64,000 bases of DNA from Trypanosoma brucei. Lineage: Eukaryota. The notes under the pieces are model-generated. The model was given only the letters and a program-made list of their open reading frames with translations, searched no databases and was not told the DNA's origin. The translations under genes and the position numbers were made by a program. Shown piece by piece: positions 1,430 to 38,179 of the stretch; position 1 is the first letter of the stretch; every line of letters starts with the position of its first letter. Location of the stretch: contig CM000208.1 in NCBI GenBank assembly GCA_000002445.1, positions 2,144,001 to 2,208,000 on the forward strand, read 5' to 3'.

Positions 1430-3187
1430 ATGGTATTCGACAAAGAGTTGAGGAATGCTGATAACTGGCGCCTTTACCACCTTTTAGAGTTGGAGCCACC
1501 AGTGACAGCAAAGCAGGTGCAATGGCTCTTCCGCAAGGTGACGTTACGCCACCACTTCTACCAGGCATATAATATACTGCGTGATGAGGAGCGGAAGAGC
1601 CTTTATGATTCACTGGGTGAAAACTTTGTTGGCTACCTTAACAGTGGCAGCTGGGGACCACTTATTCAACTACTCGGCGCTAAGGCAACAGTAGCCGTCT
1701 GCTGCGGCGTATGGGTTCTGATGATTCTGCTCATGTTGTTCTTTTTCTTGGCTGTTGGCGCCCGTGCGGATCGTCTTATCACGTGGACGTGGATGCAGGT
1801 GGCTGCTCCCGGTTTGACAGTAACTCTCATTGTGCTTATCGCGACGGCAGTGGCCATGGCGGTTAGCTTTTTCCTACGGCAGCCGAAAGAGGAAGGCATG
1901 CGATTCGTGGACCGTATTCCTGCGATCGGTAATTTTGTCGCTGCCTTCTTCTACTGCATCTTTGCCTTCATTGGGGCGTCAACGGTGGACAGTTATGCAC
2001 CTCAGCGGCATAACAACTACGCGCCATACTTTGCTTTGCCTATCCTGGCTGATGTCATATATTATCTTTCTACCATGGTGTGGCGGTGGCCCCGCAACCG
2101 GCGTCTGGACCTGGAGGTTGGCATGCAGGAGTCTAAACCCATCTTGTGGTATGCTCCGTGCGTGTTCGCCGGTCTTCACATCATTTTGTCAATCGTCCAA
2201 TGGGTCCTCCTTGCGCAGCGTGTTGACCGTATAATTAAAATCAGTTGGTACGCTGCCGCAAGCCCTATTGCCGTCCGTGCTGTGGTACGTGTTGCTGAAT
2301 CATGTATGACCAGTTTGGCGCGGCGTGCCATTGGTATTAAGAGCGTATTGGGCGTTGTCTTTGACACCTTAGGCTCTTTGTTCTTCAATGGTTTATTGCT
2401 TTGCTCCGTGTTCTTTACAGCAGCCCGCTTTGTTCGCGGGAGGAGGGTGGTTCCCCTGATTCTCGTCTTTTTACCGGTATACTTGGTGCTATTTTATCTG
2501 CTTTTCTGCACTATATACACGCTTTTTTACCTCCTGAGGAGAATCACGGAGAATGCGCGTGAGGAGCGGATGAATAACCTCAAGTGGACTCCTGTGGAGC
2601 CTCAGGCCGGCGACAAGGTGGTTCCGACGTTGCTGCGTGACTTTGATGCCTCTGAACGCATCATTTGGGATGACATTGATGATGAGAGCACTATGCAATA
2701 TTCCACCGGGTATGATGAAGTTACATTTGAAACTGAGGGTTATGATGACTATGAAACTGGTGAGGAGGAGGAGGAAGAGGAGGAAGAGGAATTATTTGCA
2801 CGAGGCGCTATGGTTTCTGGTTCCTCCGCACCTCAAACTGCACCTGCGCATCAGCGCAACGTTCCTTTATCACGTCAAGAAAGCGAATTGGTAATTGATG
2901 ATGATCACTCTGTGGTTACAATTGAGAGCAGTGAAGAGCAGCCCGTGAGGCGTCATCATGCATACCACGATCCCTATGAGTCAAGAACTGGCACAGGATT
3001 AGTAGGCCCACAAAGTGAAACGGAGTACACTCAATATGATACTAATAACGACGCTTATGAAGTGGGTGATACAAATTTAGAATCTGAATGCGCCTCCTCC
3101 GATACTTCCAGTAGTTTTGAAGCCTCCGGGACGGCTCATTCTGAAAGGCATCAGGACCCACCTTCTGAAAATGTGCGACGAAATTAG
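1430..3187 (+). CDS. Multi-pass membrane protein with an N-terminal degenerate (HPD-less) J-domain-like region and an acidic poly-Glu C-terminal tail
   Basis: ATG-initiated 585-aa ORF. The N-terminus 'LYHLLELEPPVTAKQVQWLFRKVTLRHH...FYQAYNILRDEERKSLYDSLG' aligns to the J-domain consensus (YxxLgv...eIkkaYrkla.kyHPD...F..i..AyevLsD...R..YD), but HPD is replaced by RHH. About 8 hydrophobic TM-like segments follow. The C-terminus is acidic, with an EEEEEEEEEE run. Confidence 0.5.
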   Translation: MVFDKELRNADNWRLYHLLELEPPVTAKQVQWLFRKVTLRHHFYQAYNILRDEERKSLYDSLGENFVGYLNSGSWGPLIQLLGAKATVAVCCGVWVLMILLMLFFFLAVGARADRLITWTWMQVAAPGLTVTLIVLIATAVAMAVSFFLRQPKEEGMRFVDRIPAIGNFVAAFFYCIFAFIGASTVDSYAPQRHNNYAPYFALPILADVIYYLSTMVWRWPRNRRLDLEVGMQESKPILWYAPCVFAGLHIILSIVQWVLLAQRVDRIIKISWYAAASPIAVRAVVRVAESCMTSLARRAIGIKSVLGVVFDTLGSLFFNGLLLCSVFFTAARFVRGRRVVPLILVFLPVYLVLFYLLFCTIYTLFYLLRRITENAREERMNNLKWTPVEPQAGDKVVPTLLRDFDASERIIWDDIDDESTMQYSTGYDEVTFETEGYDDYETGEEEEEEEEEELFARGAMVSGSSAPQTAPAHQRNVPLSRQESELVIDDDHSVVTIESSEEQPVRRHHAYHDPYESRTGTGLVGPQSETEYTQYDTNNDAYEVGDTNLESECASSDTSSSFEASGTAHSERHQDPPSENVRRN

Positions 3188-7855: not shown

Positions 7856-9613
7856 ATGCCCGTCCATGCCCATGCCATGTGGAATTCTCTTTGCTTCTAC
7901 AAGGCGTATTTACCACCAGAGGACACCGTAAGGGCAACTGGCTACGTGGTATTGGCTCTGGAGGAACCGGAAGAGGAGGTTTCGCCGGTACCGCGTGAGA
8001 ACTCAAACGAGAGGGGCGTATCGCCATCGCTGTCGCATTTGGATTGGCCAGATGATGGCGCTTTATTTCCAGGGGACCGATTGACCGCCGGCGCAGCGAC
8101 GAACAGCTCCCAGCTAAGCGATTTACCACCATCCCATGAGAGGTCAGTGATGGATAGGGACACCAAACTTCAGTTTTTTCTTTTCCGAAAGGAAGACGTC
8201 TCGCCGCCGTATATGAAGGGGATGCTCGGTAAAATACGTCATTGTTTTTTGCTCTGTTTGCAAGGCGATCGTGGGAACCCATGCCACTGCCACAGGGCAC
8301 ACCTTTTGAACGAAGATGCCTGGCGTTTGAAGCTCAGTTCATTTGATTTTTCAACTCTGTGTGTGTCATCCAACTTTTCGTTACGGTACATAGACGTCAC
8401 TCACGTCCGTCCGACCGCGGGGTTTTTGTTCACCTGTGGTCTGCTTCACGAGCGAATCATTGTCGCGGCGCAACCTATTCTCTGCCGCTACAATGACAAG
8501 TGCCGCTACGGTTCGCAGTGCCTTTTCGTTCATGCTGACATTGGTGGTGACAATCTCACAAAAACGACAGCCGCCACCCCCCTGAGAAATTTGTTGCCCC
8601 CACAGGAGGGTCTCGACACTTTTTTGGCTCAGTTGGAGGAGGTGGAGCTCCAAACTGTAGGGGATGTGCAACGGCTGAGCACAAAGGCATTTGACGCTTT
8701 TGTCGGCGGATGTGAACCACAATGGACCCCATTATGGCTAAACATATCTATTTTCCGTGAAATTCAACCCAAGGCATCGCTGGAAAGTGTGCTAATTTCT
8801 TTTCCTGGTGTTACTGCGCCGGTAGTTCTGCCGCCAAATCTGACAAACGTACTTTCGTTGTTGGACATGTCTCAGAAAGATTTCTACAAACTGAAACTCA
8901 CCATCAATGTACAGGCAGCGTGCGAAAAGATACGGGCCCGCTTTTGGTCTAGCAGAGATTACAGGACGTTAGACCTCAAAAGGGAAGGTGCGAAATCCTT
9001 TTTCACGAACATCACTTTAGAAATTTTACAGTTTCGATCAACAATGGCGGACTGTAGTTGGCGCAAGAAGGATCCAATGCGGCAGGTGGTGACCTCGCTG
9101 ATGACGTACGTGGATCACAAGAAGTGTCACTGCAATGTCACTTGCGGGAGCCGAAGGCACTGGTCGATGCATAAGCCAGCACTATCTTCCAACGGAAATG
9201 GGATGAGTAATGCCACATTTCCCGACCATTCCTGGTGTACATGTCCGCGTTCTACTGTGATGGCTGTCAACTATGAGCTCAGCACACCCAGCGGCTCTCG
9301 ATGCTCGGAGCAAAATGCACTGGGTAAATTGGCATCCATGGGCCTCCCCACATGTGCTGTACGGGAAGTATTTGTGCATGGGGAACATCAGGGATCAAAA
9401 AAGGACCCTAATCCGTTGTTTCCATGCGGTGTCTGTGAGAATATGTTGCGGAAGGTTGCCCACGATGTATTGGAAATTCATGGTGGAGACGTTATGTTGT
9501 ACATGTACGACTCCACTCACAACCCCAAGAGACTTGTTTATCTTCCCATAACCGAAATTTCTTATAGAGACGACATGGGGTTTAGGGAGTTTGTGGCGGA
9601 TCTTCATGAGTAG
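7856..9613 (+). CDS. CCCH zinc-finger protein with a C-terminal cytidine deaminase-like (CDA-fold) domain
   Basis: Read from the translation: a CCCH-type finger 'CRYNDKCRYGSQCLFVH' (C-x5-C-x5-C-x3-H) at about nt 8480-8535. The C-terminal 'AVNYELSTPSGSRCSEQNALGKLASMG...(37 aa)...PCGVCENMLRKV' matches the cytidine-deaminase signatures NxEN / CAE(R)xAI / PCGxCRQ (compare human CDA '[25 protein letters not shown]...SPCGACRQVMREF'). The catalytic Glu and all three Zn ligands (C, C, C) are retained. A strong polypyrimidine tract sits immediately upstream of the ATG (7790-7855). Confidence 0.6.
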   Translation: MPVHAHAMWNSLCFYKAYLPPEDTVRATGYVVLALEEPEEEVSPVPRENSNERGVSPSLSHLDWPDDGALFPGDRLTAGAATNSSQLSDLPPSHERSVMDRDTKLQFFLFRKEDVSPPYMKGMLGKIRHCFLLCLQGDRGNPCHCHRAHLLNEDAWRLKLSSFDFSTLCVSSNFSLRYIDVTHVRPTAGFLFTCGLLHERIIVAAQPILCRYNDKCRYGSQCLFVHADIGGDNLTKTTAATPLRNLLPPQEGLDTFLAQLEEVELQTVGDVQRLSTKAFDAFVGGCEPQWTPLWLNISIFREIQPKASLESVLISFPGVTAPVVLPPNLTNVLSLLDMSQKDFYKLKLTINVQAACEKIRARFWSSRDYRTLDLKREGAKSFFTNITLEILQFRSTMADCSWRKKDPMRQVVTSLMTYVDHKKCHCNVTCGSRRHWSMHKPALSSNGNGMSNATFPDHSWCTCPRSTVMAVNYELSTPSGSRCSEQNALGKLASMGLPTCAVREVFVHGEHQGSKKDPNPLFPCGVCENMLRKVAHDVLEIHGGDVMLYMYDSTHNPKRLVYLPITEISYRDDMGFREFVADLHE

Positions 9614-12502: not shown

Positions 12503-13373
12503 GAAACACACGACGCCGTGTGCATTTTTGTTTGCCTTTTTTTTCTTTTTTGTCATGTGTTGTGTTGGTGATGAGGGACGGTGAGGAAAAAGGCCAGTTG
12601 TGAGATTTATGTGTGCTTTGGGACCTAAATGGACTTGGACTGGTATGGAGGTAAGGGAATTTTAATACGATACTCAGTTTGCATGTAGCGCCACTGTGTT
12701 GTACACTGAACCTTGATTTGTGTGTAAGTTAGAGACGAAAAAAGGAGAAAAAAAATTACGTGAGGATTAAAAAAAAAATAATAATAATAAATGCCTTGAG
12801 AAAATGTTGGAATTTACTTTACCACTCGTTTGTGTGCCTTTGCGGTCCCTCTACGGTTTTCCCTTCTTCACTTCACTCCCATTCCGTCTTCTCTTTTTTT
12901 TCTCCCTCCCCATTTTCCTCTGTTTCCTTGCCCCTAGTTACCAATTCTTTCGTTTTCATTTATCCGAATTTGTAAAATGAAACAGAAAATGGAAAGAAAA
13001 GACAAGAAGTGCGGGGGGGGGCGGGAGAAAATGTCACGTGTTAGTATTGCTTTAGTGTTTTTTCGTTTTCACTCTCTCTCTCTCTCCAATATGTTTTGCA
13101 TGCCATATTTCCGCTCCGTCAGTAGTAGAGTGACTTTGTCGGTCTCTGTTGTAACGTTATTGTTTATTATTACTATTATTGTTGATCTCCCCACCATCAT
13201 CTTATTGCTTCTTCTTTTCCCCTTCCCCTTGTTGTTTCTTCCGTTGCGTTATTTTATTTGTACCGTACGCGTTTCCACACATACACACAATATATATATA
13301 TATATGTACTCAATATATACTGTAAGGACACATCCCGCATCTGGAGGGGAAAATAGTTTAGCGAATCACGCAG

Positions 13374-14240
13374 ATGTCATCGCTTGCCGAGAGACTCGTG
13401 CAACAGTTGCTGAAATTTCATCAACGTGGAGCTGAGCTCGAACAGGAGCAGAAGACGCTTGCGGAGGAGGAGAAATGCAACCAAACTCTCCAGGAACGCC
13501 TCAAACAAATGCAAGAACAAGTGCAGAAGGTGCGGGAAATTCGTGCGGTACTTAACGAACACAACCGTGCGGCGGAGGAAAAGTATGAGCAGGCAATAAA
13601 AGATGATGAGGCAAAGCGGGCGCTGATGTCAGAGGAATTGCAGGCAACTTTATCAGAGGTGAATTCATATGCAGAGGAAATTGCGCACATGGAAGCAAAA
13701 GCAGCGCAAGAGAATAAGCTACTGAAGGAACAACTTGAGATATACACCAGATTTCACTTGGATGGGCAGGACAAATACAATGAAATCATGCGTTCCAGGG
13801 AGCAGGAATACGCCAAGTTGGAGGCGAAGAAGGAAGCGGACGCCGCCCGGAAACCGCAGCTTCTGGCCGAATTATCGGAAGAGAATGAGCGTTTCCTTCA
13901 AACTCGCAAGGAGGAAAAGGAACTTGAAGTTCTAATGGATGGTTGGGTGGCACGTGTAACGGAGCTTCAAGAAAGGTTTTTAAAAGCAAGAAGGTTCTTT
14001 GAAAGTTTTAAGGAAGAAAAGGAAAGACATGTGAAGCGGATTCGATCACTTGAAAGTGAAAAAACCGTGTTGTTGGCGCGGGTGGAAAGATGTAGAGCAG
14101 AGCGTGACAAGGAGCAAGCAAAGGCGAAGGCATTCGAGGAAAAGGTCATCACACAAAAGAAACAGATAGAGAAACTTAGTGCCGTTGCACACATGCTCGA
14201 GTCCGGAAGCTTAGCAGAGAGTACGGATGCGGCAACATAG
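13374..14240 (+). CDS. Coiled-coil protein (hypothetical)
   Basis: ATG-initiated 288-aa ORF. It is strongly heptad-like, rich in E/K/Q/L/R throughout (e.g. LEQEQKTLAEEEKCNQTLQERLKQMQEQVQKVREIRAVL), which is typical of cytoskeletal or flagellar coiled-coil proteins. Confidence 0.5.
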   Translation: MSSLAERLVQQLLKFHQRGAELEQEQKTLAEEEKCNQTLQERLKQMQEQVQKVREIRAVLNEHNRAAEEKYEQAIKDDEAKRALMSEELQATLSEVNSYAEEIAHMEAKAAQENKLLKEQLEIYTRFHLDGQDKYNEIMRSREQEYAKLEAKKEADAARKPQLLAELSEENERFLQTRKEEKELEVLMDGWVARVTELQERFLKARRFFESFKEEKERHVKRIRSLESEKTVLLARVERCRAERDKEQAKAKAFEEKVITQKKQIEKLSAVAHMLESGSLAESTDAAT

Positions 14241-14330: not shown

Positions 14331-14747
14331 TTTTGTTTTTTTGTTCTTCCATGTTTCGGACGTCTATCGGTGTGTATGGTAAAAAGATATGTTGTAACCG
14401 CACATCGTAATGACCTTGACATATTCACCAGGTGCATTCGCCCGTGCCGTTTGTGTTTTGAGTTTCCACAGCTAATTGTGAAGAAATAGGGTTTAATAAC
14501 GGTTATGGTGTCCACCACCTGTCTGGTGGGCCCCACGTGGGTGGCCCCTCAATTAGTTATTACTATTACTATTATTAATATTGTTGATGTCATTTCTTCT
14601 CATTTTGTTGTCTGGGTTTCGTCCCTGTGTTCCGTTTTACCTTGTCGCTGTGGTTGTATACACGCTTTGCATTGCGGCCTTCTTTTTGTTTTTTTTTGTC
14701 TTCACGTGACTCCTCACCTCAAAAAAAAAAATACAAGGCAATTTAAA

Positions 14748-16217
14748 ATGTACTCGGATAGCGAGAGCATTATTAGTGAGTTTGACGACTTTACTTCTGA
14801 TGAGGACCCAGAAATGGATGACTTTGATCGTTTGCTCGATGAACAGGTAGAGCATCAGGAGGATTCTCTTTACACGTTGCGTCTCTCCTATTTGCGGCTT
14901 TTTGAGGATGAAGATGGCCCACTTCGATCAGCATTCCCCGACTTATATGTTCCATCTAAGGAGATTCTTCTTGACTTGAGTAACGTGTTAAGTTGTGAGG
15001 GGGATTGTGAGGAGGATGGGGAAAATGTGGAATATGAAGGAGAAGATATTGACTGGGAGGCTGCAGCGAAAGATCATGAGGCATTTGATAAACACGGGGA
15101 AGAGGGGGGTGATGATGGAGATGCGGAGGAAAATCATGACGTGCGACTACAACCGGAAAACGGGTGTGCGGAAACCACTTTGAGAACTGTTGGGAAACCA
15201 AGCCCTGCCACAAAATTCATGGACAAGCACCGAGGAAATTCTTTACTTGTTGAGGTGGGGTTAACAGTGAGTCGCAGCGAACTCAGGGAGCGTCATGTGG
15301 CGCAGTACCCAGATATTGACTTTGTTGTGGGTTACATTCAAAGGGAACCCACAGGTTGGGCACTACTAATGACCGAAGATCCCAACACGGTAGAAGGGAT
15401 CAAGTCATATTACCCTTCTCACCGTTTGGCAACCGAAAGTGATTACGTTATGTTTTTCAGGTCTACACACCCCAAAAAGACAGGTTTTGTGACTATCCCT
15501 AATCCTCCGCAGAGGCAACAAAAGAAGGGACGGAGGCAATATATCAGGCAGATGCAAAGTTCTGCCGCTCTATCTGCTCACATCGAGGCGATGGGAGGAA
15601 TGCAAAATGCTATTTTTGTGTTCCTTGACGTGGAGGCAGCTGTGGTTCAAAAGAATTCTGTCCCCCTTCCGCTGGAGATTGCGCTGGTTCCGAGTGGAGG
15701 TGATCATTCCTTCCAACCTTTCCATTGTTTCCTTCATCCAGGCGTGATAGAAAATTCCCAAGTAGCATTAGGACTAAGTTGCGGTGCAATTCCCTCAAGT
15801 CACCACGTACCACTAAACAATGTCACGTTTCTTCGCCGTGACTACACGAAAGTTGCTGAGGAGATTTCCCAGTTTTTGTCTTGCGAGCGGGTAGTGCTTA
15901 TCAACAAGGGTTCTCTTATGGATGTTCAGGCTCTGCGGTGGGTATTTGGAGCTGCTCGGATTGCAGAAAGCAGTAACATGCCCATACCCAAACTGGAGGA
16001 TATTGCTTGTTTTGATATCCAAGCCTTAAAGAAACTACTCGCACAGGGTGAATGGCGGGAAACTAAAGGTGATGCGGCGGAGACTCATGGTGAATTCTGT
16101 TGGTACCATGCCGGTATGCAAGAAGGGTTGAGGAGAGAAATTGTTGGATATACGGAGTCGCACTGTGCATTAAAAGATGCTCAGGTAATTCATGGCGTGG
16201 TGCAGAGGTATCTTTAA
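14748..16217 (+). CDS. DEDDh-type 3'-5' exonuclease-fold protein (RNase T/Maelstrom-like) with an acidic N-terminus
   Basis: The ORF track runs 14505-16217, but its first 81 codons are hydrophobic/low-complexity and contain the upstream polypyrimidine tract, so the start is placed at the internal Met (MYSDSESI). Ordered motifs read from the translation: I 'FVFLDVEAAV' (D-x-E); II 'LINKGSLMDVQAL' (D); III 'HCALKDAQ' (H-x4-D), at DEDDh-compatible spacings. A His/Cys cluster (HCFLHPG...CGAIPSSHH) is reminiscent of protist Maelstrom domains. Confidence 0.45.
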   Translation: MYSDSESIISEFDDFTSDEDPEMDDFDRLLDEQVEHQEDSLYTLRLSYLRLFEDEDGPLRSAFPDLYVPSKEILLDLSNVLSCEGDCEEDGENVEYEGEDIDWEAAAKDHEAFDKHGEEGGDDGDAEENHDVRLQPENGCAETTLRTVGKPSPATKFMDKHRGNSLLVEVGLTVSRSELRERHVAQYPDIDFVVGYIQREPTGWALLMTEDPNTVEGIKSYYPSHRLATESDYVMFFRSTHPKKTGFVTIPNPPQRQQKKGRRQYIRQMQSSAALSAHIEAMGGMQNAIFVFLDVEAAVVQKNSVPLPLEIALVPSGGDHSFQPFHCFLHPGVIENSQVALGLSCGAIPSSHHVPLNNVTFLRRDYTKVAEEISQFLSCERVVLINKGSLMDVQALRWVFGAARIAESSNMPIPKLEDIACFDIQALKKLLAQGEWRETKGDAAETHGEFCWYHAGMQEGLRREIVGYTESHCALKDAQVIHGVVQRYL

Positions 16218-16820: not shown

Positions 16821-17450
16821 ATGTTCCGCGCTTGTTTGCGTTTTCTAGCTGTGAGTCCCTTCACACTTTTTATGATGGATCAAAAAAACAATCCCGCACT
16901 GAAGGGATGTGCTATCTCTAAGAGAGGGAAATTACTCTCTAAGATGTATAAGGAACTCTCGCAAAACCAACGGCGTGAACTTAATATGCGTGCCGCCCGC
17001 CATCCGAACCTTGGGAAGCGGTCGAAGACAGAAATAACTGATGAAAAGCGCTCGTCGCGTCGCAAGAGCAAAGGAACTTTCGCAACGTTTGTGAAGAATA
17101 ACTACGCATCAGTGCGTGGATTGAATTATCGCAAGCGGTTTGCAGCACTTTCCAAGTTATATAACTTATCCCGGCCTATACAAATGGAGGAAGTAATTAA
17201 AAGTATGCCAAAAGGGCATTCCCTTGCTGCGTTGCCTGGAGGAAAGGGTTCCGCTAGTGTTAAGGCAAAAGAGAAGGAAGTAGTAATAGCGAAGGCAGTT
17301 CAGGACGCTAGTGAAATGTTGCGAGCGGCGCAAAAAGAAGGGGGAAAATCCGATACAAGTGAAAAGAAACCAACACGGAAGGGACGGGGAGCACCGAAAA
17401 AGGAAGAGAAACCAACTCAAAAAGAAAAGAAGGTAACGAAAAAAAAGTGA
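16821..17450 (+). CDS. Basic HMG-box-like DNA-binding protein with a mitochondrial-type presequence (KAP-like kinetoplast-associated protein; paralogue of the 40.5-43.9 kb genes)
   Basis: The ORF-track start at 16791 is GTG; the first ATG gives 'MFRACLRFLAVS', a typical kinetoplastid MLR-type presequence. The box 'LFMMDQKNNPALKGCAISKRGKLLSKMYKELSQNQRRELNMRAA' is paralogous to 'LFMKEQKNNPALKGLPVAKRGQATAKLYRELSVTEREELAKRAK' at 40.6 kb. The C-terminus is K-rich. Confidence 0.55.
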   Translation: MFRACLRFLAVSPFTLFMMDQKNNPALKGCAISKRGKLLSKMYKELSQNQRRELNMRAARHPNLGKRSKTEITDEKRSSRRKSKGTFATFVKNNYASVRGLNYRKRFAALSKLYNLSRPIQMEEVIKSMPKGHSLAALPGGKGSASVKAKEKEVVIAKAVQDASEMLRAAQKEGGKSDTSEKKPTRKGRGAPKKEEKPTQKEKKVTKKK

Positions 17451-30860: not shown

Positions 30861-31266
30861 TTATTGTTGTGGATGAAACTTTTTGGTTTTGAATGTGGGA
30901 GGAGAAACGGTGAAAGCAAAAAAAAAAAAGAGGTCCGATGTCGCTACTCGTTGTACTGAAAGTAATGCTTAATAGAGCCGCTGGGTAAGTTCGAAGAGAT
31001 GTCCGTTTAAAGAAAAAAAATACCCGGTCGTTGTGCACTACCGCCTTTCGTAGGGTTGTCGAAGCGTAGCAGACTTTTGTGTGAGTTGTTGTTTTTAAAT
31101 TTGTTTTTCAAAAAATAATGTCCATCATCGTTCGTTCAAAAACTGATATTTTCTCCAATGCTCACCTTTTTTTCACACTTCATTTTTTAAAAAAATCATT
31201 GCGTGCCTAACACGGATAATACAAACACTTTGCCTAGCAGGTAGGGCCTTTTGTGTTTGTGCTGCA

Positions 31267-35525: not shown

Positions 35526-36788
35526 AAGGTGGAATGTGTTGATGCCGATCATTTCTTCAGTATTTGTTTCCCTGTATTTACCACCCTCTCAATTCACTTG
35601 TTGTTTCATGTTTTCTTTATGTCACCTCAACTGTTGTGCGCGTGGCTTCGTCGCCATTTTGGTTGTCAAGTGCAGATGGTAGAGGGAGGAAAAAGGCGCA
35701 CACTTCAGTTGAGCGCTCGTTTCACTATGTATTCTATCACCTTCTTCTGTTTTGTTTTTCATTTTTCGCTACTTCAATGTGTACATGTCGTCGATGATTA
35801 ATTCTTCCCGATGTGTGCTCCTATGTATGTCTGTGAGCAGGAGGGAAAGGGCGGGTGTGATGCTTGGAGGTAACAAAAAAAAAAAAGAATCGGTAGCTTG
35901 CCTTCTTCTTTCCCTCCTTCGAAGAACAACGAGCGCCTGCTGCAAAAACAATTTTTTCTCTGTTTTGCATTTAGAAGGTTGTTTCTTCAGTTATGTCGCA
36001 GAAATGTAGGTCCGACAATCTTCTTTTCTTTTTCTTTTATCTCGTTTTGTAGATCTCTACCACATGTGCGTATGCCAAAGGTGTAATTAAAGCAGGTAGG
36101 AGGAACGAGAGGAAGGAGAAAAAAAAAAGAACATAGATTTATATTGTTCCCCTACATCGGAGCAGACTACGTCTGTAATATGCGGAACCAACCTTCTCTG
36201 CACTTTACTGTAAATGTCTGCGAGATCACGTGATGTACACAAATTGGCTGCGTTCCTCTCACCACGTTGGATGCTGGAAAGGACACACAAACGAGGACAG
36301 AGAAACAATAACAACAACAAAAAAAAGAAAAGAAGCAACAACTTATGATGACAATATTATTTCTTACTTTCTGATCCGTGATTTGATTGACACAAGCACT
36401 GTCTGTGCGAACGTATCGAGAACCTGATTATATTGTCTTTAAAAATCCCCTCCTTTACATTATTTCCCTCCTTTACCTTATTTTCCTATCTCTTATACAT
36501 GACGAGACCGAACGGTAACTCTCTGGAAACTCATCCCCTCTTTTCTGTAGATGTGTTTCCTCATCGGTTCCCGGAGAAACCCTTTACGAGTTTCCTTCAG
36601 CGCAACTCAAACTGTCTGTTGGATTGTTGTTTAGTTTTAGGACCAACCTTGTGGGTTTATGTGGAAGAATGAGATTGAGAAAAAAGGTATGACGATTGTT
36701 TTATCGATATGTTTTGTGTCTATTTCTCCCCTCTTTTACTGCACTTGCCTTCATTCGTGTTTTCTTCACGTTGGTTTTTTTCCCACCG

Positions 36789-36815
36789 GTGTGTGTGTGT
36801 GTGTGTGTGTGTGTC
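36789..36815. repeat. (GT)13 microsatellite
   Basis: gtgtgtgtgtgtgtgtgtgtgtgtgt, seen directly, 130 nt upstream of the Pro-rich CDS. Confidence 0.9.
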
Positions 36816-36943
36816 TTTGTTTCTCGTGCCGCCTCCAAGAAGTCAAAGCTATTAGAGTAAAGCCGCAAGAAAAAAATAAATAAATATATATACGTATATT
36901 ACAACGAAAGGAAAGTAAAAGGAAAAAAAAAGGATTATTATCA

Positions 36944-38179
36944 ATGTCTGCAACCGTCGCACAGCGCCCTTCTACGGCGCAGGAACGTATTCTTGCTTCC
37001 AACTGCCCTCCGCCGCCACCACCGCCCCCGGGATCCCCGTCGCACCGCCAGCGCGCCGCATACAACAACTTCGGCAGTGGCGTCTCCGCAATGTTTGGAT
37101 TTCAACCAACGGGCCTCGTCACCGCCATTGAAAATGAGACACAGGGACCAGTTGTCACTCGCAGGACAAAGTACCGTGACACCTCTGAGATCATTCTCGG
37201 ACCCAGCAAACCTTCTCAAATAAAGCACGGTGTCCGCCGCTATGATGGTCATGACGACTGCTCTGTGGGTTTGGCTCTTACCGACACTTGGATTCGCGGT
37301 TACGCCGATGATGAGGAGCCTCCCGCCCATGTCGTGAGGCAAAGGGGCCCGAAGGATAACCTTGAGGGAAATTGCTGCCGTGTCAAGACTGAGGAAACGA
37401 AACCACGCAAAATGCTTGCTCCAGGAAACCCACCTCCAAGGACGACAAGGCCTCCATACAGCGTTCCAGAGTATGATGGGAACAATGCTGAGGAAACCTG
37501 CCCCAAGCGCCTCTACAGGCACAAAGACAGCGGTAACATCATCTGCCCCGAGCCTTTGCCAAAGGGCACAGTTATCGATGACCGACCACGCGGAACGGTG
37601 CGCTCGCACCGCAACCGGTCGAACGAGTCTGTTGATGTACTCAACCTTGGCCAGTACAGCAGTGAGCAGCTCAATGAAGTGGAACGGAAACTCGTTGCAG
37701 GGCCTCGTGAATTCATTCCCCCTCCACTGCCTCCTCGCCAACGCCCAATCATCGCCCGTGTGCACACTCCTGCAAACGCAACCCACGACATTTTCGGTAC
37801 TGGCCAAGGTGTTGAAGATATTGAGCCAGTCCACTGCAAGAAACGCGGTGAGAGCGCCCCGAAACGCTCTGGTGAGTTTGACATCTTCGATCCCACTCCA
37901 CTACCGCAGCAACCCACGAAGGGGTACAACCCAAGCGATTTGTTGGTGTACGATGAGCCGTATGTTTCTGTGCAGGAGAAGCGTGAGAAGGCGGCTCGTG
38001 AGGCCCGTCGCAACCCTGAAAAGTATTGCCCAGGAAATGTTGTTACGTCTTCGCACAAGATAGAAAAGAAGACGGAAAGTGGCGTGGTCTTTCACTCCAA
38101 ATCTCAGGAAATCACTGCCCATGGTGGCCGTGCGCGTGGCTTGTACGCCCCAAGGGGAAGTTCAATCTCACTGTGTTAA
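36944..38179 (+). CDS. Proline-rich hypothetical protein
   Basis: ATG-initiated 411-aa ORF with Pro runs (PPPPPPPP, IPPPLPPRQRP). It is oriented with the transcription unit. The overlapping 297-aa minus-strand ORF (36941-37834) is interpreted as an antisense shadow. Confidence 0.45.
   Translation: MSATVAQRPSTAQERILASNCPPPPPPPPGSPSHRQRAAYNNFGSGVSAMFGFQPTGLVTAIENETQGPVVTRRTKYRDTSEIILGPSKPSQIKHGVRRYDGHDDCSVGLALTDTWIRGYADDEEPPAHVVRQRGPKDNLEGNCCRVKTEETKPRKMLAPGNPPPRTTRPPYSVPEYDGNNAEETCPKRLYRHKDSGNIICPEPLPKGTVIDDRPRGTVRSHRNRSNESVDVLNLGQYSSEQLNEVERKLVAGPREFIPPPLPPRQRPIIARVHTPANATHDIFGTGQGVEDIEPVHCKKRGESAPKRSGEFDIFDPTPLPQQPTKGYNPSDLLVYDEPYVSVQEKREKAAREARRNPEKYCPGNVVTSSHKIEKKTESGVVFHSKSQEITAHGGRARGLYAPRGSSISLC

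What the first reader, a model, noticed from the sequence alone, without database searches (positions are those of the whole stretch)
14748..16217. DEDDh exonuclease-fold protein with Maelstrom-like His/Cys cluster and long acidic N-terminal tail
Ordered D-x-E (LDVEA), D (LMDVQAL) and H-x4-D (HCALKDAQ) motifs, at spacings typical of DnaQ-H/RNase T 3'-5' exonucleases, occupy the C-terminal ~200 residues. Between motifs I and II there is a His/Cys-rich stretch (HCFLHPG...CGAIPSSHH), as in protist Maelstrom domains, which unlike animal Maelstrom retain the exonuclease catalytic residues. The N-terminal ~150 residues are extremely acidic (DDFTSDEDPEMDDFD...GEEGGDDGDAEEN). A catalytically competent Maelstrom-type nuclease would be relevant to small-RNA or retroposon control in an organism that has an RNAi pathway. 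The supplied ORF also over-extends the N-terminus through the splice signal, so database gene models could share that error.
Basis: partly seen in the sequence, partly recalled or inferred. Interest (0 to 1): 0.5.

Follow-up and report, generated by a model that had tools for sequence, protein, structure and literature searches.

The report
Trypanosome RNAi exonuclease gene RIF4

Summary
Window 14748-16217 (+) encodes 489 aa with ordered DEDDh motifs (D294/E296, D392, H472/D477), a conserved His/Cys set and an acidic N-terminus. These five residues, with the same numbering, are the ones mutated in Barnes et al. 2012 for TbRIF4 (Tb927.10.8880). That paper showed a Mg2+-dependent 3'-5' exonuclease that prefers duplex RNA, converts duplex siRNA to single strands, binds AGO1 and is essential for RNAi. 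Zhang et al. 2008 had already listed the T. brucei protein as a protist MAEL domain keeping the exonuclease residues.

My tests agree:
- A RIF4-domain profile retrieves Pfam Maelstrom proteins.

GenBank XP_823112.1 is the over-extended 570-aa model. Orthologues, in-frame stops and a 181-nt AG-free zone ending 10 nt before ATG 14748 support the short form.

Small additions: residues ~150-237 fold as an RRM-like domain, and an RRM-then-MAEL order recurs in distant relatives. Verdict: already known, low interest.

The parts
14748..16217 (+). TbRIF4 coding sequence (489 codons + stop), Tb927.10.8880
   Evidence: 100% identical to T. equiperdum, T. b. gambiense and T. brucei models. D294, E296, D392, H472 and D477 match the numbering of the mutants in PMC3359990.
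14505..14747 (+). Spurious 81-codon N-terminal extension used in GenBank XP_823112.1 (570 aa); most likely untranslated sequence and intergenic splice signal
   Evidence: 570/570 identity. The extension translates a pyrimidine tract and an A-run. T. theileri and T. rangeli have in-frame stops 4 and 32 codons upstream of the conserved M(L)YS start.
14678..14737 (+). Polypyrimidine tract (14678-14703) and first downstream AG (14736-14737): predicted spliced-leader acceptor, giving a 10-nt 5' UTR
   Evidence: The AG-free zone 14555-14736 (181 nt) is the 4th longest of 3842 AG-to-AG gaps in the window. Inferred from sequence, not mapped with RNA data.
14748..14996 (+). N-terminal region, residues 1-83: conserved MYS start, acidic, long helix 21-53; function unknown
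   Evidence: Y2 and F52 invariant; G57, R60 and F63 in at least 90%. (pLDDT 63-88 over residues 21-80).
14997..15191 (+). Acidic, poorly conserved linker predicted to be disordered (residues 84-148)
   Evidence: pLDDT < 50 for 83-148; gappy and variable; acidic composition.
15195..15458 (+). RRM-like domain (residues ~150-237; strand-helix-strand-strand-helix-strand order; invariant G203, W204 in 90%, in an RNP1-like 'GWAL')
15525..16214 (+). MAEL-type DEDDh 3'-5' exonuclease domain (residues ~260-489)
15627..15635 (+). Exo I motif, D294-V-E296
   Evidence: The D294A mutant did not restore RNAi; E296A was poorly expressed (PMC3359990).
15675..15677 (+). E310, the Glu of the MAEL ECHC zinc motif (second strand)
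   Evidence: Invariant. Aligns with the P-x-E Glu of Drosophila Mael (4ybg). Bombyx E137 role: PMC4408791.
15723..15806 (+).
   Evidence: Pfam Maelstrom partial match over 322-381.
15921..15923 (+). Exo II catalytic D392
   Evidence: The D392A mutant did not restore RNAi (PMC3359990).
16098..16109 (+). C451-W-Y-H454, the Cys and His of the ECHC zinc motif
   Evidence: Invariant. Aligns with C-Q-Y-H of 4ybg.
16161..16178 (+). Exo III motif H472-C473-A-L-K-D477; C473 is the last ECHC zinc ligand, interleaved with the catalytic H and D
   Evidence: H472A drastically reduces exonuclease activity in vitro and does not restore RNAi in vivo (PMC3359990).

Best explanation
The ORF is TbRIF4 (RNA Interference Factor 4, Tb927.10.8880) of Trypanosoma brucei sensu lato.

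Its C-terminal ~230 residues form a MAEL-type member of the DEDDh (DnaQ-H) exonuclease superfamily. It keeps both the two-metal catalytic set (D294, E296, D392, H472, D477) and the structural zinc motif ECHC (E310, C451, H454, C473).

Mechanism as published. After Dicer (DCL1 or DCL2) makes duplex siRNAs, RIF4 associates transiently with AGO1. It degrades one strand of the duplex from its free 3' end, in a distributive, Mg2+-dependent way. This leaves a single-stranded guide in AGO1. RIF4 thereby replaces the slicer-dependent passenger-strand removal used in other eukaryotes. It is also needed for normal AGO1 protein levels.

Inferred here, not shown. The RRM-like domain (residues ~150-237) and the conserved N-terminal helices supply RNA contacts, AGO1 contacts, or both. 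The acidic stretch 84-148 is a flexible linker. Translation starts at ATG 14748, downstream of a spliced-leader acceptor at AG 14736-14737.
For: Identity:
- 100% identical to T. brucei-group proteins.
- The five catalytic residues carry exactly the numbering of the published TbRIF4 mutants, and the published length is 490 aa.
- Synteny is conserved: Taxilin-domain gene, RIF4, then a ~180-aa gene. The next gene ID, Tb927.10.8890, is the HMG-box protein KAP6.

Function (literature, PMC3359990):
- rif4 knockout cells lose both cytoplasmic and nuclear RNAi.
- Duplex siRNAs accumulate and are not associated with AGO1.
- GST-RIF4 is a Mg2+-dependent 3'-5' exonuclease that needs a free 3' end and prefers dsRNA. 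H472A drastically reduces the activity.
- D294A, D392A and H472A fail to complement the knockout.
- RIF4 co-purifies with AGO1. Human AGO2 bypasses the need for RIF4.

- Foldseek: RNase T and ExoI at E about 1e-4.
- The RIF4-domain profile finds 67 representative proteins. Of 27 distant ones taken from that list, 20 are Pfam Maelstrom.
- A second-round profile hits 4ybg at 1e-22, 9nhc_F at 7.5e-11 and 5af0 at 6e-10.
- DEDDh and ECHC columns are conserved.
- An amoeba MAEL protein with both DEDD and ECHC is an active exoribonuclease (PMC4408791).

Start codon.
Against: - Pfam does not call the window protein by itself: Maelstrom E 0.12 (12.5 bits against 22), and RNase_T is not listed.
- Sequence searches of PDB with the single protein or the RIF4-only profile find nothing relevant.
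- I could not read model coordinates, so convergence of the five residues on a two-metal site was not measured.
- Barnes et al. note that AGO1 levels do not track catalytic competence in a simple way. A non-catalytic chaperone-type role may coexist.
- Recombinant RIF4 shows no strand selectivity, so how the guide strand is spared is unknown.
- A second candidate splice acceptor exists at AG 14385-14386. The 5' end is inferred, not mapped.
Confidence: 0.95

Rival explanations
1. RIF4 is mainly an AGO1 loading or stabilising chaperone. On this view the nuclease activity is secondary, and the key function is a physical interaction that stabilises AGO1 and hands over siRNA.
For: AGO1 protein falls about 20-fold in rif4 knockout cells, while AGO1 mRNA is only marginally affected. 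Catalytically impaired RIF4 partly supports AGO1 accumulation. The authors themselves raise a chaperone-like role (PMC3359990). The conserved N-terminal helices and the RRM-like domain lie outside the nuclease.
Against: D294A, D392A and H472A do not restore RNAi although they are expressed near wild-type level. siRNAs stay duplex without RIF4. All catalytic residues are invariant across orthologues.
Confidence: 0.15
2. The protein works like animal Maelstrom: a catalytically inert RNA-binding module, or a metal-independent single-strand endonuclease, acting in transposon silencing without 3'-5' exonuclease chemistry.
For: The closest solved folds are animal MAEL domains. The ECHC motif is conserved.
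Against: Animal MAEL domains lack the DEDD residues, and Bombyx Mael is inactive as a nuclease (PMC4408791). RIF4 keeps all five residues. It shows Mg2+-dependent activity that needs a free 3' end, and H472A drastically reduces it.
Confidence: 0.03
3. It is a DNA-directed proofreading or repair exonuclease of the DnaQ/TREX type, unrelated to RNAi.
Against: Among the five trypanosomatid genomes compared by Barnes et al., the gene is found only in the RNAi-proficient ones. The knockout phenotype is loss of RNAi. The preferred substrate is duplex RNA. MAEL structures score higher than the DNA exonucleases.
Confidence: 0.02

Closest known systems
TbRIF4 (Tb927.10.8880), Barnes et al. 2012, PLoS Pathog 8:e1002678
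   Same: It is the same protein. The sequence is identical to T. brucei-group entries, the catalytic residue numbering is the same, and the length matches (489 aa here, 490 in the paper).
   Different: Nothing in the nuclease.
Protist MAEL-domain nucleases (e.g. Entamoeba histolytica EHI_192630; Zhang et al. 2008; Chen et al. 2015)
   Same: A MAEL fold that keeps both DEDD(h) and ECHC. The amoeba protein is an active Mg2+/Mn2+-dependent exoribonuclease. The T. brucei protein was already in Zhang's MAEL alignment.
   Different: EhMael was assayed on ssRNA, whereas RIF4 prefers duplex RNA and works with AGO1. RIF4 also carries an acidic N-terminus and an RRM-like domain.
Metazoan Maelstrom (Drosophila 4YBG, Bombyx 5AF0 and 9NHC)
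   Different: Animal proteins have lost the DEDD residues and are not exonucleases. They carry an N-terminal HMG box, where RIF4 has an RRM-like domain. Sequence identity is only 8-19%.
Neurospora crassa QIP (QDE-2-interacting protein, 4WBQ)
   Same: A DEDDh exonuclease that interacts with an Argonaute and is needed to obtain single-stranded siRNA.
E. coli DnaQ epsilon, RNase T and TREX1 (classical DEDDh enzymes)
   Different: They have no ECHC zinc site. Pfam RNase_T does not match RIF4. Substrates and partners differ.

Membership tests
TbRIF4 orthologous group (trypanosomatid RNAi factor 4) | Sequence identity with the published T. brucei protein, including positions D294, E296, D392, H472 and D477 | tested here: met
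   100% identity to T. brucei-group entries.
TbRIF4 orthologous group (trypanosomatid RNAi factor 4) | Conserved genomic position | tested here: met
   The order Taxilin-domain gene, RIF4, ~180-aa gene is the same in the window, T. theileri and T. rangeli. The next gene ID, Tb927.10.8890, is the HMG-box protein KAP6.
DEDDh (DnaQ-H / RNase T) 3'-5' exonuclease superfamily | Ordered Exo I (D-x-E), Exo II (D) and Exo III (H-x4-D) motifs | tested here: met
   Invariant in 10 orthologues.
DEDDh (DnaQ-H / RNase T) 3'-5' exonuclease superfamily | RNase H-like alpha/beta fold superposable on known DEDDh enzymes | tested here: met
DEDDh (DnaQ-H / RNase T) 3'-5' exonuclease superfamily | Match to Pfam RNase_T (PF00929) | tested here: not met
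   Not listed for the window protein even at E up to 10. Only 1 of 10 orthologues matches, at E 0.041.
DEDDh (DnaQ-H / RNase T) 3'-5' exonuclease superfamily | The five residues converge on a two-metal site in 3D | not testable with these tools
   Model coordinates are not exposed. Only the secondary-structure placement could be checked.
DEDDh (DnaQ-H / RNase T) 3'-5' exonuclease superfamily | Mg2+-dependent 3'-5' exonuclease activity | not testable with these tools
   Reported for GST-TbRIF4, drastically reduced by H472A (PMC3359990).
MAEL (Maelstrom) domain, Pfam PF13017 | Pfam gathering score | tested here: inconclusive
   The window protein scores 12.5 bits against a cut-off of 22 (E 0.12, partial match over 322-381). 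Three of 10 orthologues match, best E 9.3e-8. The T. theileri orthologue carries a PF13017 hit marked 'weak' in the precomputed annotation.
MAEL (Maelstrom) domain, Pfam PF13017 | Profile-level homology to accepted MAEL proteins | tested here: met
   The RIF4-only domain profile finds 67 proteins at E <= 1e-3. Of 27 distant ones taken from that list, 20 are Pfam Maelstrom (best E 1.1e-80) and 3 carry HMG boxes. A second-round profile hits 4ybg at 1e-22.
MAEL (Maelstrom) domain, Pfam PF13017 | MAEL fold | tested here: met
MAEL (Maelstrom) domain, Pfam PF13017 | ECHC zinc-binding motif (Glu on the second strand, C-x2-H, and a Cys four residues before the last DEDD position) | tested here: met
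   E310, C451, H454 and C473 are invariant in orthologues and at least 90% conserved in distant relatives. They align to the P-x-E, C-Q-Y-H and Y-C positions of 4ybg. The spacing matches the Bombyx description. Actual zinc binding was not tested.
Metazoan Maelstrom protein (HMG box + MAEL, piRNA pathway) | N-terminal HMG box and loss of the DEDD residues | tested here: not met
   No HMG-box match. An RRM-like fold sits there instead. The DEDDh residues are retained. RIF4 therefore shares the domain family but is not an orthologue in architecture.
RRM (RNA recognition motif) for residues ~150-237 | Four-stranded sheet with two helices in RRM order, similar to solved RRMs | tested here: met
RRM (RNA recognition motif) for residues ~150-237 | Pfam RRM_1 match and canonical RNP1/RNP2 aromatic residues | tested here: not met
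   No RRM_1 hit. Only an RNP1-like 'GWAL' is present (G203 invariant, W204 in 90%). The first strand lacks the RNP2 aromatic residue.
QIP-type siRNA passenger-strand exonuclease (Neurospora) | Homology beyond the shared DEDDh fold | tested here: not met

The most novel reading that the evidence does not exclude
RIF4 may preserve an ancestral arrangement in which a MAEL nuclease is fused to a single-strand RNA-binding module and docks on an Argonaute/PIWI protein.

The middle domain of RIF4 is an RRM-like fold. An RRM-then-MAEL order recurs in at least two distant relatives. Animal Maelstrom, with an HMG box in the equivalent position, has recently been seen bound to a PIWI-piRNA-target complex (PDB 9NHC).

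If the MAEL-Argonaute partnership predates the split of kinetoplastids and animals, then animal Maelstrom would be a catalytically dead descendant of an Argonaute-loading exonuclease. In that case the RRM-like domain or the N-terminal helices of RIF4 would be the undescribed AGO1-docking or strand-selecting element.
Probability: 0.25. Interest if true: 0.45.

Novelty: already known. Interest (0 to 1): 0.1.

Why it matters
RIF4 is one of only five core RNAi genes of trypanosomatids. It shows a slicer-independent way of maturing the Argonaute-siRNA complex. It also bears on attempts to rebuild RNAi in RNAi-negative parasites such as T. cruzi and L. major. All of this is already published.

The practical value of this second look is modest:
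1. It documents that the GenBank TREU927 entry XP_823112.1 still carries an 81-residue false N-terminus.
2. It pins the MAEL zinc ligands (E310, C451, H454, C473) on the T. brucei sequence. C473 lies directly between the catalytic H472 and D477.
3. It flags an RRM-like domain and conserved N-terminal helices as untested candidates for dsRNA preference, strand choice or AGO1 binding.

Tried and rejected
- A single-sequence phmmer search against PDB gave only chance hits: 2h6l and BCL9, E 0.39-1.1.
- The Pfam Thiaminase-1_dom hit (E 0.15) was dismissed as chance. It appears in one orthologue only.
- Literature searches for spliced-leader mapping or later functional work on Tb927.10.8880 found only the 2012 paper and genome surveys. 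The 2026 L. guyanensis preprint does not name RIF4 domains in its text.
- I considered that the two 585-aa ORFs in the window (1430-3187 and 7856-9613) might be tandem duplicates. Only one matches the LmjF365940 deaminase family, so they are probably unrelated. I did not align them directly.

Full report
**What is there**

Window 14748-16217 (+) is an open reading frame of 489 codons plus a stop. LDVEA carries D294 and E296. LMDVQAL carries D392. HCALKDAQ carries H472 and D477.

The first 150 residues are 32.7% Asp+Glu, against 10-11% in the rest. The larger mechanical ORF starts at ATG 14505 and gives 570 aa.

**Identity**

A search of about 5.8 billion proteins returned a 100% identical 489-aa protein from T. 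equiperdum. It also returned 26-43% identical proteins from T. congolense, T. rangeli, T. conorhini, T. grayi, T. theileri and T. vivax, plus three from unnamed assemblies. The 90% cluster holds the T. b. gambiense and T. b. equiperdum 489-aa models and the T. b. brucei TREU927 entry XP_823112.1 (Tb10.6k15.1610), which is 570 aa. That entry is 570/570 identical to the window's long ORF.

Barnes et al. 2012 (PMC3359990) describe TbRIF4, Tb927.10.8880, as '490 amino acids long' with a C-terminal DnaQ-type domain. They mutated D294, E296, D392, H472 and D477. Those numbers fall exactly on the motif residues of the window protein when counted from ATG 14748. The finding is therefore the TbRIF4 gene.

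Gene order agrees. A Taxilin-domain gene lies upstream and a ~180-aa gene downstream, in the window and in T. theileri and T. rangeli. The next gene ID, Tb927.10.8890, is the HMG-box kinetoplast protein KAP6. The downstream orthologues give sub-threshold HMG_box matches.

**What is already known about it**

Zhang et al. 2008 (PMC2628886) defined the MAEL domain. They listed T. brucei, T. congolense, T. vivax and L. braziliensis proteins among the protist members that keep the DnaQ-H residues DEDHD alongside the MAEL signature EHHCHC.

Barnes et al. showed the following:
- rif4 knockout cells lose both cytoplasmic and nuclear RNAi.
- siRNAs accumulate as duplexes that are not bound to AGO1.
- AGO1 protein drops about 20-fold.
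- GST-RIF4 is a distributive, Mg2+-dependent 3'-5' exonuclease. It needs a free 3' end and prefers duplex RNA, and H472A drastically reduces the activity.
- D294A, D392A and H472A fail to rescue RNAi.
- RIF4 co-purifies with AGO1, and the H472A mutant is recovered in that complex in greater amounts than the wild type.
- Human AGO2 makes RIF4 dispensable.

Chen et al. 2015 (PMC4408791) solved the Bombyx MAEL domain. They found a structural zinc held by ECHC (E137 on strand 2, C290, H293, C302). Bombyx Mael was inactive as a nuclease, and animal Maelstrom proteins lack the DEDD residues. An Entamoeba MAEL protein with both DEDD and ECHC is an active exoribonuclease.

Pfam on the window protein alone is weak. 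Maelstrom scores E 0.12 and 12.5 bits against a cut-off of 22, over residues 322-381 only. There is no RNase_T match. Three of the 10 orthologues match Maelstrom, best E 9.3e-8.

A profile of the C-terminal domain built from RIF4 orthologues only was searched against 1.84 billion representative proteins. It found 67 hits at E <= 1e-3. Of 27 distant ones taken from that list, 20 are Pfam Maelstrom proteins (best E 1.1e-80) and three carry HMG boxes. Most of the 27 keep D-E-[D/E]-H-D, and nearly all keep E, C, H, C.

A profile that includes these relatives hits 4ybg at 1e-22, 9nhc_F at 7.5e-11 and 5af0 at 6.2e-10. It also hits a PolC exonuclease domain at 0.003. The printed alignment puts the family's P-x-E, C-x-Y-H and H-C positions on the Drosophila P-A-E, C-Q-Y-H and Y-C positions.

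Combined with the Bombyx description, the zinc motif of TbRIF4 is E310, C451, H454 and C473. All four are invariant in RIF4 orthologues. C473 sits between the catalytic H472 and D477.

In the stretch HCFLHPG...SSHH (326-353), H326, H330 and H352 are invariant in RIF4 orthologues. H326 is conserved in at least 90% of the wider family, and H352 is His in most members. I read these as the two extra His of Zhang's EHHCHC signature. That reading is an inference. C327, C345 and H353 vary. The stretch is a genuine MAEL-family feature, but it is not the zinc site.

**The N-terminal half**

The 'acidic tail' has parts:
- Residues 1-19 and 83-148 are predicted disordered and are poorly conserved.
- Residues 21-83 form confident helices with conserved F52, G57, R60 and F63.
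- All ten sequences begin M(L/F)Y, nine of them with Ser next.

Two distant family members do carry Pfam RRM_1 on the N-terminal side of their MAEL domain. P0067 has it at 9-76, ahead of MAEL at 140-313. P0049 has a sub-threshold match at 241-298, ahead of MAEL from 377. I did not find this domain mentioned in the papers I read. Whether it binds RNA or AGO1 is not known.

**Start codon**

- The 81 extra codons translate a pyrimidine tract and an A-run.
- In T. theileri and T. rangeli the frame is closed 4 and 32 codons upstream of the conserved start, with no upstream ATG.
- A 26-nt pyrimidine tract (14678-14703) is followed by the first AG at 14736-14737.
- The AG-free interval 14555-14736 (181 nt) is the fourth longest of 3842 in the window. 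Several of the other long AG-free intervals also lie just upstream of ORFs.
- A second candidate acceptor at AG 14385-14386 cannot be excluded. With it, ATG 14505 would be only the third AUG of the transcript.

**Verdict**

The protein is a MAEL-type DEDDh exonuclease acting in small-RNA and retroposon control, and a database model with a false N-terminus exists. The His/Cys assignment needs correcting and an RRM-like domain was missed.

The gene, its family assignment, its enzymology and its role in RNAi were all published between 2008 and 2015. The finding is therefore already known and of low interest. The only loose ends worth a specialist's time are the function of the RRM-like and N-terminal regions, and whether the MAEL-Argonaute partnership is ancestral.

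Noticed in passing
window 16821-17450 (+): The gene just downstream of RIF4 begins MFRACLRF...SPFTLFMMDQKNNPALKG and ends in a Lys-rich tail. It is syntenic in T. theileri and T. rangeli. Those orthologues give sub-threshold Pfam HMG_box matches (E 0.08 and 0.24). The next gene ID, Tb927.10.8890, is TbKAP6, an HMG-box kinetoplast DNA protein (PMC10719067). The mechanical ORF (16791, GTG start) is probably 10 codons too long.
   Followed up: partly
L002 3001-4431 (T. rangeli AM80, MKGL01000132.1); protein P0003: The T. rangeli AM80 RIF4 orthologue is an intact 476-aa ORF with all DEDDh and ECHC residues. Stoco et al. 2014 (PMC4169256) report rif4 as a pseudogene in strains SC-58 and Choachi, and T. 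rangeli is regarded as RNAi-negative. This may be a strain difference or a recently disabled pathway.
   Followed up: partly
window 13129-13325, 14555-14736, 31084-31236, 36685-36838 and others: Several of the longest AG-free intervals in the window sit immediately upstream of + strand ORFs, as expected for AG-exclusion zones ahead of trans-splice acceptor sites. This gives a simple sequence-only guide to true start codons in this window.
   Followed up: partly
window 13374-14240 (+): The upstream neighbour is a 288-aa coiled-coil protein matching Pfam Taxilin (E 7e-13). It is conserved in the same position in T. theileri and T. rangeli.
   Followed up: no
window 7856-9613 (+): A 585-aa ORF matches the LmjF365940 subfamily of CDD/CDA-like deaminases (Pfam PF14421, E 7e-53). 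Another ORF of the same length at 1430-3187 has no Pfam match.
   Followed up: no
proteins P0067 (503 aa) and P0049 (608 aa), distant MAEL relatives from the representative library: Both combine a Pfam RRM_1 match (P0049's is below the Pfam cut-off) with a downstream MAEL domain that keeps D-E-E-H-D and ECHC. An RRM-then-MAEL nuclease architecture therefore exists outside kinetoplastid RIF4. Their organisms are unknown, because the library carries no names.
   Followed up: partly
window 1-64000: All 20 mechanical ORFs of 200 aa or more that are not overlapped by a longer + strand ORF lie on the + strand. The four - strand ORFs of that size all overlap + strand ORFs. Cumulative GC skew rises almost steadily (one negative 2-kb bin, 36001-38000). 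Both fit a single polycistronic transcription unit of a trypanosomatid chromosome.
   Followed up: no
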